A stretch of 64,000 nucleotides of DNA, from NCBI GenBank assembly GCA_047601445.1, contig JASGJH010000001.1, forward strand, positions 7,680,001 to 7,744,000, given 5' to 3'. Of this stretch, positions 2,503-60,787 are shown in pieces; positions within the stretch are counted from its first letter, which is position 1; each line of letters begins with the position of its first letter. The DNA comes from Myxococcales bacterium (GTDB lineage Bacteria > Myxococcota_A > Polyangia > Polyangiales > DASUME01). The translations under genes were made by a program, and so were the position numbers. The notes beneath the pieces are model-generated. The model searched no databases. It was given only the letters and a program-made list of their open reading frames with translations, and was not told where the DNA came from.

Positions 2503-2515
2503 GGACGTCATCACG

Positions 2516-2537
2516 GGGGAGGTCACGCGACCTCCCC
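2516..2537 (+). terminator. GC-rich hairpin after the TraB-like gene
   Basis: GGGGAGGTC-ACGC-GACCTCCCC, 9-bp perfect stem, no U-tract. Confidence 0.35.
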
Positions 2538-2645
2538 GCCCGTCGCGGCCAAGCCGCGTCGGGACCCGCCCGCCCCAGCGATTCGCCTTGCTCACGCGGT
2601 TCCTCGAACCTGGCGCCGGTCTCCCCTTCGTGGTCTCCTCCCGTC

Positions 2646-26595: not shown

Positions 26596-26661
26596 GTTGA
26601 AAACCGGGGACGTCACGCGAGCCCGCCGTTTCGCGAGGCTGCGCTCACGTGGTGCAATGAC

Positions 26662-29651: not shown

Positions 29652-30767
29652 CTAAAAATGAAACCTTCGCATCGATACATTCATCAACAAGCCAATCCCG
29701 ATCATGAACGTCAGCACACTCGAGCCACCGTGCGAGAACAACGGCAGGGTCACGCCCACCACTGGCAGGAGTCCGAGCACCATGCCCACGTTGATCACGG
29801 TGTGGAAGAAGAACATGGCGCTCACGCCCACGGCCAACACGGCGCCGAAGCGGTCCTTGGCCTGAGAGGCGACCTTGAGGCCCCACATGATGAGGAAGAA
29901 GTAGGCGCCCAGTAGCACCAACACGCCGAGCAAGCCGTGCTCCTCGGAGAACACCGCGAAGGGGAAGTCGGAGTGATTGTCGGGCAAGAAGCCGTATTGG
30001 TTTTGCGTGCCCTGCAGGTAGCCCTTGCCCCAGATACCGCCGCTGCCGATGGCAACCTTGCTCTGGTAGGCGTGCCAGCCCGAGCCGAGCAGGTCGTGTT
30101 CGGGGTTGGTGAATGAGCTCCAGAACGAGGTCACGCGCTCCTTCTGGTAGCCCTCGAGGATGAACTGCCAGGTCAGCGGAATACATGCCAAAAAGGCCAC
30201 CACCAAGGTGAGCAGCGAACGCAGCTTGAGGTTGGTCAGCAGCATGACGGACCCGAAGATCGCGGCGCAGATGAGCGCCGTGCCGAGGTCGGGTTGCTTG
30301 AGGATGAGGATCATCGGGAAGCCGAGGATCAGGCCGGGCAGCACCAAATCCTTGAGCGTGCGACCCGTGGTCTTGGGATCGTTGTGCAGGTACTTGGCGA
30401 GCGCGATGATCAAAAAGATCTTCATCAGCTCACTTGGTTGCAGCGAGAAGGCTCCTATGGAGAGCCAGCGTACCGAGCCGCGCACGCTGCGCCCGATGAT
30501 GAACAGCAGTACGAGCGTGGAAACACCGATGCCGTAGGCCACCCAGCCGTGGCGCTCGTAGTGCCGATAGTCGATGGCCGCCACCACCACCGCCACGCCC
30601 GACCCCAGCGCGAGCCAGTAGATCTGCTGCATGTAGATGTTGGCCATGCCGTCGGTGGCCGCGCTGGTGGCGCTGTAGAGGTTGGTCACGCCGGCCAGGG
30701 CGATGAAGGCCACGGTGACGAACAGGGGCCAGTCGAACTGCTCTTTGAGACCGCCACGGATCGCCAT
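29652..30767 (-). CDS. rodA: Rod shape-determining SEDS glycosyltransferase RodA
   Basis: RW....LQPSE..K, QPDLGT, AIGSGG..GKG, LP..HSDF.F, LLPVVGVTLP..S.GGSS; AAGGAG RBS. Confidence 0.95.
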   Translation of the reverse strand: MAIRGGLKEQFDWPLFVTVAFIALAGVTNLYSATSAATDGMANIYMQQIYWLALGSGVAVVVAAIDYRHYERHGWVAYGIGVSTLVLLFIIGRSVRGSVRWLSIGAFSLQPSELMKIFLIIALAKYLHNDPKTTGRTLKDLVLPGLILGFPMILILKQPDLGTALICAAIFGSVMLLTNLKLRSLLTLVVAFLACIPLTWQFILEGYQKERVTSFWSSFTNPEHDLLGSGWHAYQSKVAIGSGGIWGKGYLQGTQNQYGFLPDNHSDFPFAVFSEEHGLLGVLVLLGAYFFLIMWGLKVASQAKDRFGAVLAVGVSAMFFFHTVINVGMVLGLLPVVGVTLPLFSHGGSSVLTFMIGIGLLMNVSMRRFHF

Positions 30768-30894
30768 CAGGGAGCTCCTTTGACAGACGGGGAGGGCACG
30801 CGCCCTCTCCGCCCCTCGCGGCGAAGCCGCGCTGGGCCCCACCCCACCGCGAGGTTCGCTGCGCTCACGATCGGACCCTGCATCAGGGAGCTCC
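30765..30894 (-). mobile_element. MIRU-like 116-bp insertion with 14-bp flanking direct repeat, encoding a 38-aa translationally coupled mini-ORF (30767-30883)
   Basis: CATCAGGGAGCTCC occurs at 30765-30778 and 30881-30894. Minus-strand ORF MQGPIVSAANLAVGWGPARLRREGRRGRVPSPSVKGAP* overlaps the mrdA stop and the rodA start, both via TGATG. Internal hairpins present. Confidence 0.65.
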
Positions 30895-32763
30895 ACGGGT
30901 GGTGAGGGCCGTTTGGTTGCCGCTGTCGCCGTAGTAGCTCTTGAGCGCTTCGATGGCGATGGGCGCGGCGTTCTTGCCGCCGCCGCCGCCGTGCTCGACC
31001 ATGACGACGATGGCGAGCTCGGGCTTATCCGCCGGGGCCCAGCCCGCGAACCAGGCGTGCGAGCGGTGCATGTACCAGGAGCGCTGTTCGTCGTCCTTGG
31101 CGCGCTGGTGGTGCTCGACCTGGGCCGTGCCGGTCTTGCCCGCCACCTGCACCTTGCCACCCGCGTACTTGGGGTCGTAGGCCGTGCCGCCTTCTTCGTT
31201 CACCACGCCCCACAGGGCCTGGTGGATGAGCTCCATGTGCGCCGGGTTGTACTTGAGGGTGCGCCGCACGCGCGGCGTGAACCGTTCCAGCACCGTGCCG
31301 TCGGGCGCCTGCACGCTGTCCACGAGCTGCGGCACGTAAACCGTCCCGCCGTTCGCGAGCGCCGCGTACACCATGGCCAATTGGATCAAGCTGACACGCG
31401 TATTGCCCTGCCCGATCACGGTGTTGAGCGTGTAGCCCACGCGGAACACTTCACCGCGCTGCTCGTACCAGCTCTTGGTGGGGATGAAGCCGCGCGTCTC
31501 GGTGTTGATGCCGATGCCCGTCTTCTCGCCCAAGCCGAGGTCGGTGGCGAAGCGCGCCAGGCGGTCGATGCCGGCGAGCTCACCGAGCTTGTAGAAGTAC
31601 GTGTTGCACGAGCGGACTAGCGCCTCGCGCATGCTGACCTCGCCGTGTACGTGCTCGCAGCGGAAGCGCCGGTTGCCGAGCGTGTAGAAGCCGATGCAGT
31701 CGACGCGCTGAGTGGTGTTGACCAGGCCGTCTTCCAGGGCTGCCAGGGCGCTGATGGGCTTGAAGGTGGAGCCCGGGTAGTAGGTATCGTAGAGCGTCTT
31801 GTCGATCAGCGGGCGGAAGGGGTTCTCGTTGAGCTCGCGCGCGCGCTCCACGCTGAGCTTGCCGCTGATCTCGTTGAGGTCGTAGGAGGGCTTGGAGAAC
31901 AAGGCGCGCACCTGGCCCGTCTTCACGTCGACCACGACGGCCGCGCCCGAGGGGTGGCCACGGAACGCGCGCTCCAGCGTGCGCATGAGCTCCATGTCCA
32001 AGGTCAGCGCGAGATCGCGCCCCGGCACGGGCTCCTCGAGCATCACGCGCGCGTCTTTCACCGGCTTGATGCGGGAGCGACGTCCGCGCGCATCGACGTA
32101 GACCCGGCGGAACCCGCGCTGGCCGCGCAAGAACGACTCCCAGGCGCGTTCGATGCCGCTGCGACCGGCCAAATCGCCGGCGCGGTAGCCGAGGTCCTTG
32201 AGCTGCTCGAGCTCCTCGCCGCTGATCTCGTTGAGGTAGCCGATGGCGTGGGCCGCCAGCTTGCCGAACGGATAGTCGCGCACGGGCACGCTCACCACGT
32301 CCACAGCGGGGAGATCGCGTGCGTGGGTCTCCAGCGCCGCCAGCTGTTCGCGCGTGAGCTCGCCCAACATCTGGATTTGGTGGGTGCGTCGGCGCTCCGG
32401 CACGCGCGCGAGCTGCGCCTGAAAGGCCGCCTTGCCCTTCTCGTCCAGACCCAGCAGCTCCTCGATGCGCGCCATATCCTCGGGGCCGCGCAGGCGCGAG
32501 GGCGTGAGGTACATGCGGAAGGCAGGGCGGTTGCTGGCGATGACCCGGCCGTGCTGGTCGCGCACGACGCCGCGCGTGGCCGGCAGGTCGAGGGTCTTGA
32601 CGATGTTCTCTTGCGCGATCGCGGCGTACTCGTCGTGTGCGACCACCTGCAGGTACACGATGCGAGTGAACAGCGTGAGGAACGCGGCACTGACGCCCAG
32701 CGCCATCCATTTGTAGCGCTTCTTGAACTCGCCGACCTCGCGACTGACGCTCAAGAGATTCAT
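30883..32763 (-). CDS. mrdA: Penicillin-binding protein 2
   Basis: RG...DQ.G, PGSTFK (SxxK), SCN, KTGTAQ, HAWF; located between mreD and rodA. Confidence 0.95.
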   Translation of the reverse strand: MNLLSVSREVGEFKKRYKWMALGVSAAFLTLFTRIVYLQVVAHDEYAAIAQENIVKTLDLPATRGVVRDQHGRVIASNRPAFRMYLTPSRLRGPEDMARIEELLGLDEKGKAAFQAQLARVPERRRTHQIQMLGELTREQLAALETHARDLPAVDVVSVPVRDYPFGKLAAHAIGYLNEISGEELEQLKDLGYRAGDLAGRSGIERAWESFLRGQRGFRRVYVDARGRRSRIKPVKDARVMLEEPVPGRDLALTLDMELMRTLERAFRGHPSGAAVVVDVKTGQVRALFSKPSYDLNEISGKLSVERARELNENPFRPLIDKTLYDTYYPGSTFKPISALAALEDGLVNTTQRVDCIGFYTLGNRRFRCEHVHGEVSMREALVRSCNTYFYKLGELAGIDRLARFATDLGLGEKTGIGINTETRGFIPTKSWYEQRGEVFRVGYTLNTVIGQGNTRVSLIQLAMVYAALANGGTVYVPQLVDSVQAPDGTVLERFTPRVRRTLKYNPAHMELIHQALWGVVNEEGGTAYDPKYAGGKVQVAGKTGTAQVEHHQRAKDDEQRSWYMHRSHAWFAGWAPADKPELAIVVMVEHGGGGGKNAAPIAIEALKSYYGDSGNQTALTTRGAP

Positions 32764-59774: not shown

Positions 59775-60005
59775 GCGCGTTGGGGGCCAAGCCCGCCGGA
59801 TGTGCGATGTGGCCCGATGTGCGCCCTGAGTCTGTGGGCTAGCCCGCCCGCAACCGCCCCCTGCGCTGCGCACCCCTCGCCCGGCTTCTGGGCGCGCACA
59901 AAGTTGGGTAAATTGGGGTGCTTGCTCGAGAGCCCCGGAAAAAGCGTCGGCCTTGGTCACGGCTTTCCCGGTGGCTGCTAGGAGTAATCAAAGGAGCTTG
60001 AGAGC

Positions 60006-60200
60006 ATGTCGATGACCAACTGGAAGAGCACTTTGTGCAGCCTGGGCGCAGCCCTTCTGCTCGGGGGAGTCGGGGCGGGCTCGTACCACTACCTCACGTC
60101 TTCTTCGGCGTCGGAGTGCTGCAAGCAGGGCGCAGCCTGTTGCAAGCCGGGCGCCGAGTGCTGCAAGCGCCACGCGCATCCGAGCAACGAGCCTGGCTGA
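60006..60200 (+). CDS. Small membrane-anchored/exported Cys-Cys repeat protein (64 aa)
   Basis: AAGGAG RBS; hydrophobic N-terminus; ECCKQGAACCKPGAECCKRHAH. Confidence 0.7.
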   Translation: MSMTNWKSTLCSLGAALLLGGVGAGSYHYLTSSSASECCKQGAACCKPGAECCKRHAHPSNEPG

Positions 60201-60211
60201 AGGTCCTCTGG

Positions 60212-60787
60212 GTGGTGGAGCCTCAGCAGGCGCGAGCCCGTTCGACTGCGGAACGTGAACTCGATCTCCTGATGGCCCAGCTCTCCGCGGGAGAGCGCAC
60301 CGCCTTCGATCCGTTGTTTCGAGCCCTCTACCCGCGCGCACAGCGCTTGGCGGCCTTGCGTCTCGGCCACGCGCAGGCAGCGGATGTGGCCCAGTCGGCG
60401 CTGCTCAGGGTGTTCGCCCGCGCCAGCGAGTTTCGTGCGGGCAGCGCGGTGTTGCCCTGGTTCTACGCCATCGTCGCCAACGAGATTACGGCCGCGCGGC
60501 GCAAGCGAGGGCCGCTGTCTGCACGCGAGAGCGGCGACGATCCGGCGCGCACGGGAGAGCCCGCGCCCGAGCTCGAGAGCGATCCCGAAGCGCAGCTGCT
60601 GGAGCAGGAGTTGGTGCGGGCCGTGCGGCTCGCCATCGACGAGCTCGATCGCCCCTCTGCGGAAGCCATTGCGGCCATGCTGGAGGGCAGCGCCATCCCC
60701 GGCCTCACGGCGCCGGCCTTTCGCAAGCGGGTCTCGCGGGCCTACGCGCGGCTCAGGTTGCTCCTACGAGGTTCCCATGGAGACTGA
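60212..60787 (+). CDS. ECF RNA polymerase sigma factor
   Basis: G...AF..LF, A.DVAQ...RVF, W.Y.I..N, region 4 RKRVSRA..RLR. Confidence 0.85.
   Translation: MVEPQQARARSTAERELDLLMAQLSAGERTAFDPLFRALYPRAQRLAALRLGHAQAADVAQSALLRVFARASEFRAGSAVLPWFYAIVANEITAARRKRGPLSARESGDDPARTGEPAPELESDPEAQLLEQELVRAVRLAIDELDRPSAEAIAAMLEGSAIPGLTAPAFRKRVSRAYARLRLLLRGSHGD

What the first reader, a model, noticed from the sequence alone, without database searches (positions are those of the whole stretch)
30765..30894. MIRU-like 'translational relay' insertion inside the mrdA-rodA junction
Seen: the 14-mer GGAGCTCCCTGATG (minus strand) occurs twice, 116 bp apart. The first copy is the end of mrdA (Gly-Ala-Pro-stop), with an ATG overlapping the stop. 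The second copy supplies the RBS and ATG of rodA. From the first ATG a 38-codon ORF (MQGPIVSAANLAVGWGPARLRREGRRGRVPSPSVKGAP*) runs without stops and ends in TGATG on the rodA start. The 3n+2 spacing preserves -1 translational coupling. The insert carries hairpins (CCTCGCGG...CCGCGAGG; GAGGGC-GCGT-GCCCTC). Known: mycobacterial MIRUs insert at overlapping stop/start junctions and carry coupled mini-ORFs. Inference: this is a non-autonomous element that duplicates the stop/RBS/start junction and so enters cell-shape operons without polarity. I do not know of a described myxobacterial equivalent. A partial look-alike (CGCGAGG..CTGCGCTCACG) lies at about 26632-26649.
Basis: partly seen in the sequence, partly recalled or inferred. 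Interest (0 to 1): 0.8.

Follow-up and report, generated by a model that had tools for sequence, protein, structure and literature searches.

The report
Mobile hairpin repeat inside mrdA-rodA junction
A 102-base copy of a hairpin-rich repeat found at 156 places in this soil bacterium's genome sits exactly on the overlapping stop/start of two cell-wall genes and is flanked by a 14-base duplication that gives the downstream gene its ribosome site and start back; the 38-codon frame this creates would likely hand ribosomes on to that gene, as mycobacterial MIRU repeats are thought to do.

Summary
GGAGCTCCCTGATG occurs twice on the minus strand, 116 bp apart (0 expected by chance). The first copy ends mrdA. 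The second carries rodA's GGAG and ATG. A 38-codon ORF bridges them, stop-on-start at both ends.

The insert is not unique. It belongs to a ~100-bp, three-hairpin repeat family with 215 profile hits at 156 loci in this 9.5-Mb genome. Some loci are tandem arrays of period 96-107 bp. The family also occurs in related Polyangiales MAGs.

All 8 same-genus relatives examined have an uninterrupted mrdA-rodA junction. A soil-metagenome contig, about 97% identical, skips exactly these 116 bp and keeps one 14-mer. This is therefore a recent insertion with a 14-bp target duplication.

The "relay" is not a family trait. Only 39 of 156 loci lie sense between co-directional genes, and 2 of those 39 have a bridging ORF. 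Array periods are not multiples of three, and open frames are trivial at this GC content. Most copies sit against gene stop codons, as REP/BIME elements do. Long duplications flank only 3 of 89 loci, and each spans a stop codon.

No transposase partner, terminal inverted repeat or Rfam match was found. Translation of the mini-ORF is untested. Verdict: MIRU-like at this locus, a new repeat family, moderate interest.

The parts
30883..32763 (-). mrdA (PBP2), ending Gly-Ala-Pro-TGA inside duplication copy 1
   Evidence: ORF list; Pfam Transpeptidase 2.4e-67 and PBP_dimer 9e-41
30881..30894 (-). Target-site duplication copy 1, GGAGCTCCCTGATG: last mrdA codons, the TGA, and the SD and ATG of the mini-ORF
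   Evidence: a single copy in the metagenome empty allele ('both = 14')
30767..30883 (-). 38-codon bridging ORF (MQGPIVSAANLAVGWGPARLRREGRRGRVPSPSVKGAP*); its start overlaps the mrdA stop and its stop overlaps the rodA start
   Evidence: codon log-odds -0.175 per codon against +0.52 (mrdA) and +0.51 (rodA); no Pfam family
30779..30880 (-). Inserted element proper, 102 bp: leader, three hairpins and an A-rich tail
   Evidence: Absent from all relatives' junctions and from the metagenome contig; 92-93% identical to other genomic copies
30870..30880 (-). 5' leader CAGGGTCCGAT, the weakly conserved end of the family
   Evidence: Information profile of 113 copies
30847..30870 (-). Hairpin 1 (CGTGAG ... 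CTCGCGG) with the family's conserved T.G wobble
   Evidence: Pair counts in 134 distinct copies: T.G in 124
30812..30836 (-). Hairpin 2 (CCCAGCGCGGC-TTC-GCCGCGAGGGG), the covarying stem of the family
   Evidence: Columns 57-75 GC 73 / AT 22; columns 62-70 GC 98 / AT 12; different compensated stems in relatives' copies
30789..30810 (-). Hairpin 3 (GGAGAGGGC-GCGT-GCCCTCCCC)
   Evidence: Columns 87-94 TA 81 / GC 45, with 8 of 134 copies unpaired at that position
30779..30788 (-). A-rich 3' tail GTCTGTCAAA; the family signal ends here and the duplication begins at the next base
   Evidence: Information content falls to background at +11 after CCTCCCC
30765..30778 (-). Target-site duplication copy 2: SD (GGAG), the mini-ORF TGA and the rodA ATG
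29652..30767 (-). rodA (SEDS family); its start is conserved in relatives (MAIRGGLKEQFDWPL)
   Evidence: Pfam FTSW_RODA_SPOVE 7.6e-102; junction alignments
2509..2607 (-). Second full copy of the family in the window, with the stop of an opposite-strand gene 14 nt beyond hairpin 3
26604..26652 (+). Degenerate remnant in reverse orientation: hairpin-3-like piece plus hairpin-1 piece
   Evidence: read by eye; below the nhmmer threshold

Best explanation
A 102-bp copy of a dispersed, non-coding, three-hairpin repeat inserted recently into the overlapping TGATG stop/start of mrdA and rodA with a 14-bp target duplication. The resulting 38-codon frame is likely translated and would carry or re-load ribosomes onto rodA.

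Shown directly: the family exists at 156 loci. Relatives and a near-identical metagenome allele have the empty, directly coupled site. The duplicated 14-mer holds GGAG, the stop and the start, so mrdA keeps its native C-terminus and stop, and rodA keeps its native SD, spacing and ATG.

Inferred: the first 14-mer now serves as SD and ATG for the mini-ORF in the way it once served rodA. Ribosomes that finish mrdA would re-initiate there, melt the three hairpins, terminate on the rodA ATG and re-initiate again. GGAGCUCC is self-complementary, so in the predicted mRNA fold the two copies pair and bury both SDs. A ribosome terminating on mrdA would open this stem, which would keep rodA translation dependent on mrdA translation.

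I read the relay as a permissive accident that let this insertion survive in an important operon, not as a designed property of the family. The family otherwise behaves as a REP/BIME-like selfish or structural repeat parked at gene ends. Its mobilising enzyme is unknown.
For: Family. BLASTN of the insert against its own genome gives 191 hits, 137 of them near full length (66 plus, 71 minus). nhmmer gives 215 hits at 156 loci, 123 solo and 33 arrays of 2-7 units. Only 6 loci overlap called genes by more than 20 bp.

Empty site. The RodA locus was recovered in 8 of 9 same-genus genomes. Seven of the 8 have T(G/A)ATG overlap and one has TAG-C-ATG. None has an insert, and the junction is equally tight in other families of the order. 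Run X1 contig 2 (230 nt, 7 differences) joins 30764 to 30881, skipping 116 bp with 14 letters that fit either side.

Boundary. The family's 3' information ends at +10 after CCTCCCC, and our duplication starts at +11.

Other duplications of the same kind. G000 1413549 has 11 bp and G000 6206937 has 13 bp; both span the stop codon of a sense-oriented upstream gene.

Structure. Compensatory pairs occur in hairpins 2 and 3, and hairpin 1 carries a conserved T.G. The sense strand folds better than the antisense strand in 83 of 99 copies.

Relay geometry. The ORF and peptide were verified. The paired GGAGCUCC copies appear in both the MFE and centroid structures.

Analogy. MIRUs are described as inserting at start codons with an internal ORF coupled to the downstream gene (passage of PMC12548453).
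Against: There are no expression or ribosome data: no run listed as RNA holds the stretch.

The mini-ORF has non-coding codon usage and no family match. It is at best a ribosome conduit.

rodA keeps its own SD and ATG, so it may be translated de novo and the relay may be irrelevant.

The correct phase plus an open frame would arise by chance in about 1 insertion in 5. This is my estimate: 1/3 for the phase times about 2/3 for an open frame.

The sense-strand fold of the region is no more stable than shuffles (z = -1.26).

Eighty-six of 89 testable loci in this genome, and all 37 copies examined in relatives, lack a long flanking duplication. The insertion mechanism is therefore unclear, and the 14-bp duplication may not be the family's normal footprint.

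The filled allele has not been checked against reads of the same strain.
Confidence: 0.7

Rival explanations
1. The element is a host-serving RNA module placed here to set the PBP2:RodA ratio, acting as an mRNA 3'-end stabiliser, processing barrier, attenuator or translation brake. The mini-ORF is irrelevant. On this view the stable hairpins would protect the upstream mrdA segment from 3' exonucleases or slow ribosomes near the stop, as reported for E. coli REP sequences (recalled: Newbury 1987; Liang, Rudd and Deutscher 2015; neither was read here).
For: Hairpins are conserved with compensatory changes within the genome and across species. The family's strong preference for positions 0-17 nt from stop codons fits a function at gene 3' ends. 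The G.U-type wobble makes the sense strand the better folder in 83 of 99 copies.
Against: Copies face adjacent genes in either orientation about equally, which fits a strand-specific RNA function poorly. The element is absent from this junction in all 8 relatives examined and in a 97%-identical allele, so the operon works without it. No U-tract terminator was found and there is no Rfam family. Conserved hairpins are equally expected if a transposition enzyme recognises them in single-stranded DNA.
Confidence: 0.15
2. The family is a true MIRU-type relay element whose normal way of life is to enter stop/start junctions with a coupled internal ORF.
For: This locus fits. At ligD-ku, three 102-bp units are read in frame by the upstream ORF, which ends TGA on the ku ATG. 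The locus at G000 7000252 has a 44-codon bridging ORF. Tandem arrays recall MIRU arrays.
Against: Only 39 of 156 loci lie sense between co-directional genes, and 2 of those 39 have a bridging ORF. Ninety of 156 loci have their 3' end against the stop of an opposite-strand gene. Among the 25 array periods of 90-115 bp, the residues mod 3 are 2:12, 0:7 and 1:6. The two relay-like loci use different frames of the element. All three antisense frames and two of the three sense frames are open regardless.
Confidence: 0.07
3. The insert and its 14-bp flanking repeat arose by local replication or repair error, not by a dedicated transposition reaction. One route is template switching to another copy of the repeat at a stalled hairpin, resolved by microhomology.
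For: Most copies lack target duplications. No terminal inverted repeats were found: end-to-end score 6 against a shuffled mean of 5.2, with 163 of 500 shuffles at least as high. No gene-carrying master copy was found. No linked transposase was found. Module-level mosaics and arrays point to frequent slippage and recombination.
Against: The three independent duplications of 11-14 bp all begin right at the family's 3' boundary and all have the same geometry. This looks like a staggered-cut footprint. The inserted unit is complete from leader to tail.
Confidence: 0.08

Closest known systems
MIRU (mycobacterial interspersed repetitive units; Supply et al. 1997, seen only as cited in a passage of the review PMC12548453)
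   Same: A short non-coding unit, dispersed and often tandemly repeated. At this locus it sits at a gene start inside an operon, in the genes' orientation, with an internal ORF whose stop overlaps the downstream start. Insertion should therefore cost little expression.
   Different: No homology was shown and the host phylum differs. The overlap here is TGATG (1 nt), not the 4-nt type named in the review. The junction is rebuilt by a 14-bp duplication. At family level only 2 of 39 suitably oriented loci have a bridging ORF, and most copies lie at gene 3' ends in either orientation.
REP / BIME / REPIN elements with RAYT transposases (abstract of PMC3337134 read)
   Same: Extragenic, GC-rich, hairpin-forming repeats in hundreds of copies. 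They are packed against gene 3' ends and convergent gaps, occur as mosaic and tandem arrangements of modules, usually lack a target duplication, and show covarying stems.
   Different: This family has three different hairpins in a fixed order, not one palindrome or an inverted REP doublet. The genome's only Y1 transposase gene (G000 59924-60280) lies in an AT-rich stretch with no family copy within 1.5 kb. There is no replichore strand bias (88 vs 68). Three copies carry 11-14-bp duplications.
MITEs such as Neisseria Correia elements and enterobacterial ERIC (recalled, not read here)
   Same: About 100 bp, non-autonomous, co-transcribed with neighbouring genes, with filled/empty polymorphism between close relatives.
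   Different: No terminal inverted repeats, no fixed short duplication, and no related autonomous element found.
Rickettsia palindromic elements and pneumococcal BOX elements (recalled, not read here)
   Same: RPEs are tolerated inside reading frames because they stay in frame. Compare the ligD-ku array read in frame, the 7 genes that end at the TGA inside the element's GTGAGCG, and the 38 opposite-strand genes that end in its tail. BOX elements are modular, with a repeated middle module. Compare the arrays of hairpin-1 modules followed by hairpin-3 modules.
   Different: No sequence relation was shown, and here coding overlap is limited to the last few codons of genes.

Membership tests
MIRU-type relay repeat | Short dispersed unit, often in tandem arrays | tested here: met
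   215 hits at 156 loci; 33 arrays of 2-7 units; periods mostly 96-107 bp
MIRU-type relay repeat | This copy lies in the genes' orientation at a start codon, with an internal ORF whose stop overlaps the downstream start | tested here: met
MIRU-type relay repeat | The coupled-ORF arrangement is the rule across the family | tested here: not met
   39 of 156 loci are sense between co-directional genes; 2 of the 39 have a bridging ORF; array periods are not multiples of 3. Gene starts come from my own crude caller, so the count is approximate.
MIRU-type relay repeat | Sequence homology to mycobacterial MIRUs | not tested
   No MIRU sequence was available from any tool. Rfam has no matching family.
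REP/BIME/REPIN-RAYT | Extragenic hairpin repeats concentrated at gene 3' ends | tested here: met
   Convergent gaps hold 47 of 156 loci (30%) against 18% of all intergenic gaps. The element's 3' end faces a stop codon at 90 of 156 loci, at a median distance of 0.
REP/BIME/REPIN-RAYT | Unit is a single palindrome or an inverted doublet of it (REPIN) | tested here: not met
   Three distinct hairpins in a fixed order; the ends are not complementary
REP/BIME/REPIN-RAYT | Cognate single-copy Y1 (RAYT) transposase gene flanked by family copies | tested here: not met
   One PF01797 gene in the genome. No family hit at E<=10 in its 3.3-kb region, and its flanks are unique in the genome. A shared 11-mer turned out to be common in coding sequence.
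MITE | Terminal inverted repeats | tested here: not met
   Local alignment of the 30-nt ends scores 6 against a shuffled mean of 5.2; 163 of 500 shuffles score at least as high
MITE | Target-site duplication of characteristic length at most copies | tested here: not met
   In the position-restricted test, 4 of 89 loci have a repeat of 8 nt or more (0.85 expected), and one of the four is an array artefact. No terminal repeat was found in the 37 copies from relatives.
MITE | Filled/empty polymorphism between close relatives | tested here: met
   also the locus at G000 8280384 against G007 and two further loci
Intrinsic terminator | GC-rich hairpin followed by a U-tract | tested here: not met
   0 terminator-like sites in 30500-31200 on either strand; the tail is A-rich on the sense strand

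The most novel reading that the evidence does not exclude
The family is moved by an undescribed mechanism that cuts across stop codons. All three young insertions that still show their footprint have variable 11-14-bp duplications. Each duplication starts right after the A-rich 3' tail and spans the stop codon of a gene in the element's own orientation. The element's structure is also biased to that same (RNA-sense) strand. This pattern would fit integration coupled to the 3' ends of translated messages, for example an RNA-mediated, target-primed route. It would make this the first stop-codon-seeking mobile repeat in bacteria, with relay insertions such as mrdA-rodA as its natural by-product.
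Probability: 0.1. Interest if true: 0.85.

Novelty: new variant of a known kind. Interest (0 to 1): 0.5.

Why it matters
This is a clean natural experiment on translational coupling. An overlapping stop/start between the two partners of the elongasome's wall synthase (PBP2 and RodA) has been split by 116 bp of strong hairpins, yet every signal was rebuilt by the insertion's own target duplication. A 97%-identical empty allele exists for comparison. The system lets one ask, in a single organism, whether a junk ORF can carry coupling across structured RNA. That idea has so far rested mainly on mycobacterial MIRUs. The finding also defines an undescribed three-hairpin repeat family of a largely uncultured Polyangiales genus. 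The family supplies stop codons and C-terminal residues to dozens of genes, marks at least one 7-kb indel, and has no known mobiliser.

Tried and rejected
- RAYT link: rejected. The one Y1 transposase has no family copies nearby. An 11-nt identity in its flank (CGTGAGCGAAG) proved common, with 33 occurrences outside the family, mostly in coding sequence.
- Retroposon-like 5' truncation: not seen. Among 123 solo copies, 16 are truncated at the 3' end, 13 at the 5' end and 1 at both.
- Replication-strand bias: 88 vs 68, not convincing.
- Gene-carrying master element bounded by a 5' part and a 3' part within 8 kb: none found.
- RNAalifold on all 134 distinct copies returned an empty structure. 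I used explicit pair counts instead.
- Precise empty sites for other loci in same-genus genomes: coding identity is only 67-85%, so intergenic junctions could not be aligned base for base. They show absence of the element but not exact breakpoints. The locus at G000 7000252 found no orthologue in 5 genomes.
- RNA evidence: no RNA holder is listed for the stretch.
- Run X1 gave no cover on the second duplication locus, so nothing can be said there.
- Rfam: only chance-level matches with E of 2.9 or more, far below the gathering scores.
- Sigma-70 promoter scan of the insert: 0 sites.
- Literature. The search 'myxococcus/repetitive/intergenic/repeat' listed 20 of 35 papers and none describes this family. 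The search for 'unique repetitive DNA sequence' plus 'Myxococcus xanthus' found 0 papers. That 1991 paper on an 87-bp M. xanthus repeat is recalled only, and I could not compare it. The search on MITEs plus translational coupling found 0 papers. The paper on REP sequences and stop-codon-proximal stalling is recalled; it was not among the 8 of 20 papers that one search listed, and one search found no 'REP sequences' passage in the held text of PMC5009743.
- This scan's earlier notes hold nothing resembling the core sequence.
Full report
OBSERVATION

On the minus strand, GGAGCTCCCTGATG lies at 30894..30881 and again at 30778..30765, 116 bp apart. A search allowing one mismatch finds only these two copies in 64 kb, with none expected from 100 shuffles.

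mrdA is the ORF 30883..32763. It ends ...Gly-Ala-Pro-TGA inside the first copy. An ATG sharing the A of that TGA opens a 38-codon ORF (30883..30767). The TGA of that ORF shares its A with the rodA ATG in the second copy.

Pfam confirms the gene order mreB, mreC, mreD, mrdA (Transpeptidase + PBP_dimer) and rodA (FTSW_RODA_SPOVE). The mini-ORF product matches nothing.

THE INSERT IS ONE COPY OF A LARGE FAMILY

The window lies in a single 9.50-Mb contig. BLASTN of the 130-bp region against this genome gives 191 hits, of which 137 are near full length (66 plus, 71 minus) at 80-93% identity.

A profile built from these hits finds 215 matches at 156 loci: 123 solo copies and 33 arrays of 2-7 units. 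Most full-unit array periods are 96-107 bp.

The conserved core is about 84 bp, from CGTGAGCG to CCTCCCCG. It is followed by a roughly 10-nt A-rich tail and preceded by a weakly conserved leader of about 10-16 nt.

The core holds three hairpins:
- Hairpin 3 covaries cleanly, with TA in 81 and GC in 45 of 134 distinct copies at one pair.
- Hairpin 2 covaries at two pairs. In related genomes its stems are quite different but still compensated.
- Hairpin 1 carries a T.G wobble in 124 of 134 copies.

Because of that wobble, the strand shown here folds better than its complement in 83 of 99 copies.

Negative results on the family:
- No terminal inverted repeats.
- No Rfam family.
- No gene-carrying version.
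- No link to the genome's single Y1 transposase gene.
- No clear replication-strand bias.

The same family occurs in 4 of 9 same-genus genomes, and in weaker, partial form in three other families of the order. An exact 27-nt motif of hairpin 3 was found in 15 stretches from four assemblies, titled Polyangiales or Myxococcales MAGs, in the representative-genome collection.

WHERE THE FAMILY SITS

I used my own codon-statistics gene caller, which called 7161 genes and recovered the mre/mrd genes correctly. By this annotation, only 6 of 156 loci overlap a gene by more than 20 bp.

Convergent gaps hold 30% of loci, against 18% of all intergenic gaps.

The element's 3' end faces the stop codon of an opposite-strand gene at 90 loci, at a median distance of 0. 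Its 5' end faces the stop of a same-strand gene at 86 loci, at a median distance of 25 nt.

For opposite-strand genes, measured from the last C of CCTCCCC, the stop codon lies at +2..+8 (inside the tail) in 38 of 66 loci and at +12..+17 in 19 of 66. Seven same-strand genes stop at the TGA inside GTGAGCG. The family is therefore packed against gene ends, often donating the stop codon. This is REP/BIME-like behaviour.

IT IS A RECENT INSERTION INTO A COUPLED JUNCTION

The RodA locus was recovered in 8 of 9 same-genus genomes; the ninth yielded only a paralogue. In all 8, mrdA runs straight into rodA:
- Seven have T(G/A)ATG overlap, for example GGAGGTCCGTGATGGCC and GGAGCTCCATAATGGCC.
- One has TAG-C-ATG.

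Genomes of other families in the order are equally tight.

In a soil-metagenome run, one 230-nt contig with 7 differences from the window joins 30764 directly to 30881. It skips exactly 116 bp, and 14 letters fit either side. That is the precise empty allele with a single 14-mer. A second, more distant contig also lacks the insert.

The inserted unit (30880..30779, 102 bp) is complete from leader to tail. The duplication begins at the very base where the family's information content drops to background.

IS THE DUPLICATION TYPICAL?

No. With both ends anchored, 109 loci give a distribution of longest flank repeats no different from mismatched-locus controls, apart from this locus (14 bp) and G000 1413549 (11 bp).

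A position-restricted test on 89 loci finds 4 with a repeat of 8 nt or more, against 0.85 expected. These are the two loci above, G000 6206937 (13 bp) and one array artefact. None of the 37 copies fetched from four relatives shows a terminal repeat.

All three real duplications have the same geometry. The element is in the orientation of an upstream gene, and the duplication spans that gene's last codons and stop...CCC-TGA-TG; GAACGAGGGCT with TAG or TGA completed by the next two bases; and AAGAGAAG-TAG-GC. With n = 3 this is only a lead.

IS THE RELAY A FAMILY TRAIT?

No. The evidence against:
- Only 39 of 156 loci lie sense between co-directional genes.
- Of those 39, 2 have an ORF that starts within 15 nt of the upstream stop and ends at the downstream start: this locus and G000 7000252.
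- Two of the three sense frames are open in 87 and 90 of 99 copies. All three antisense frames are open in at least 95 of 99. An open frame is therefore the default.
- The required phase (spacing of 3n+2) has a prior of 1/3. I estimate the chance of a relay arising by accident at about 0.2.
- Among the 25 array periods of 90-115 bp, the residues mod 3 are 2:12, 0:7 and 1:6.
- The mini-ORF has non-coding codon usage (-0.175 per codon, against +0.52 for mrdA and +0.51 for rodA).

One further locus is instructive. At ligD-ku (G000 5976727-5977035), three 102-bp units are read in frame by the upstream ORF. That ORF ends TGA on the ku ATG and uses the other open frame of the element.

HOW IT MOST LIKELY WORKS HERE

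What is shown: the duplication leaves mrdA with its native end, and leaves rodA with its native GGAG, spacing and ATG.

What is inferred:
- The first 14-mer now drives the mini-ORF in the way it once drove rodA.
- Ribosomes would traverse and melt the hairpins, terminate on the rodA ATG and re-initiate.
- GGAGCUCC is self-complementary. In the predicted fold, the two copies pair with each other in both the MFE and centroid structures, enclosing the element and burying both SDs. A ribosome finishing mrdA would open that stem, so rodA would stay dependent on mrdA translation.

The sense fold as a whole is not unusually stable (z = -1.26); the antisense fold is (z = -3.81). A 2025 review describes the same logic for MIRUs (passage read). 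No RNA data exist for this organism in the indexed runs, so translation remains untested.

VERDICT

The claim that this is the family's strategy is not supported.

I file it as a new variant of known kinds. It is MIRU-like in its effect at this locus and REP/BIME-like in family behaviour, but it is a member of neither by the defining features tested. I found no description of the family in four full-text searches. An older M. xanthus repeat paper is recalled but could not be read.

It pointed me to the REPIN review, of which I read the abstract.

Noticed in passing
G000:C1:5976521-5977045 (outside the window): At a ligD-ku junction, three tandem 102-bp units of the repeat are read in frame by the upstream ORF, which has a ligase-D-like C-terminus. 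That ORF ends TGA on the ATG of a Ku-like gene. The 2.5 kb upstream is split into several short ORFs in two frames, so ligD may be broken or mis-assembled.
   Followed up: partly
G000:C1:8271418-8278468 (locus L025 419-7469): A roughly 7.1-kb segment bounded on both sides by copies of the repeat is replaced by 89 bp in the syntenic contig of relative G007. This is an indel or island with repeat copies at both edges.
   Followed up: partly
genome-wide, e.g. G000 3024534, 5263493, 2273113: Thirty-eight opposite-strand genes end on a stop codon inside the element's A-rich tail (mode 6 nt after hairpin 3). Seven same-strand genes end at the TGA within GTGAGCG. The repeat therefore supplies stop codons and the last residues of dozens of proteins.
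   Followed up: partly
G000:C1:59924-60280 (locus L067): The genome's only Y1 (IS200/IS605-type) transposase gene lies in a markedly AT-rich stretch with small flanking hairpins. Its flanks are unique in the genome and it is not linked to this repeat.
   Followed up: partly
G000:C1:3432147-3432488 and 7639910-7640217: Mosaic arrays in which the hairpin-1 module is repeated 3-4 times, followed by repeats of the hairpin-3 module. This modular amplification resembles BOX/BIME elements.
   Followed up: no
window 30881-30888 and 30771-30778 (minus strand): The duplicated SD region GGAGCTCC is a perfect palindrome containing GAGCTC. The insertion therefore created an 8-bp long-range stem that did not exist in the empty allele.
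   Followed up: partly
window 29652-31160 (minus strand): The rodA frame stays open upstream through the whole insert and 280 nt into mrdA (a 502-aa ORF from a GTG). The conserved N-terminus in relatives argues for the ATG at 30767.
   Followed up: partly
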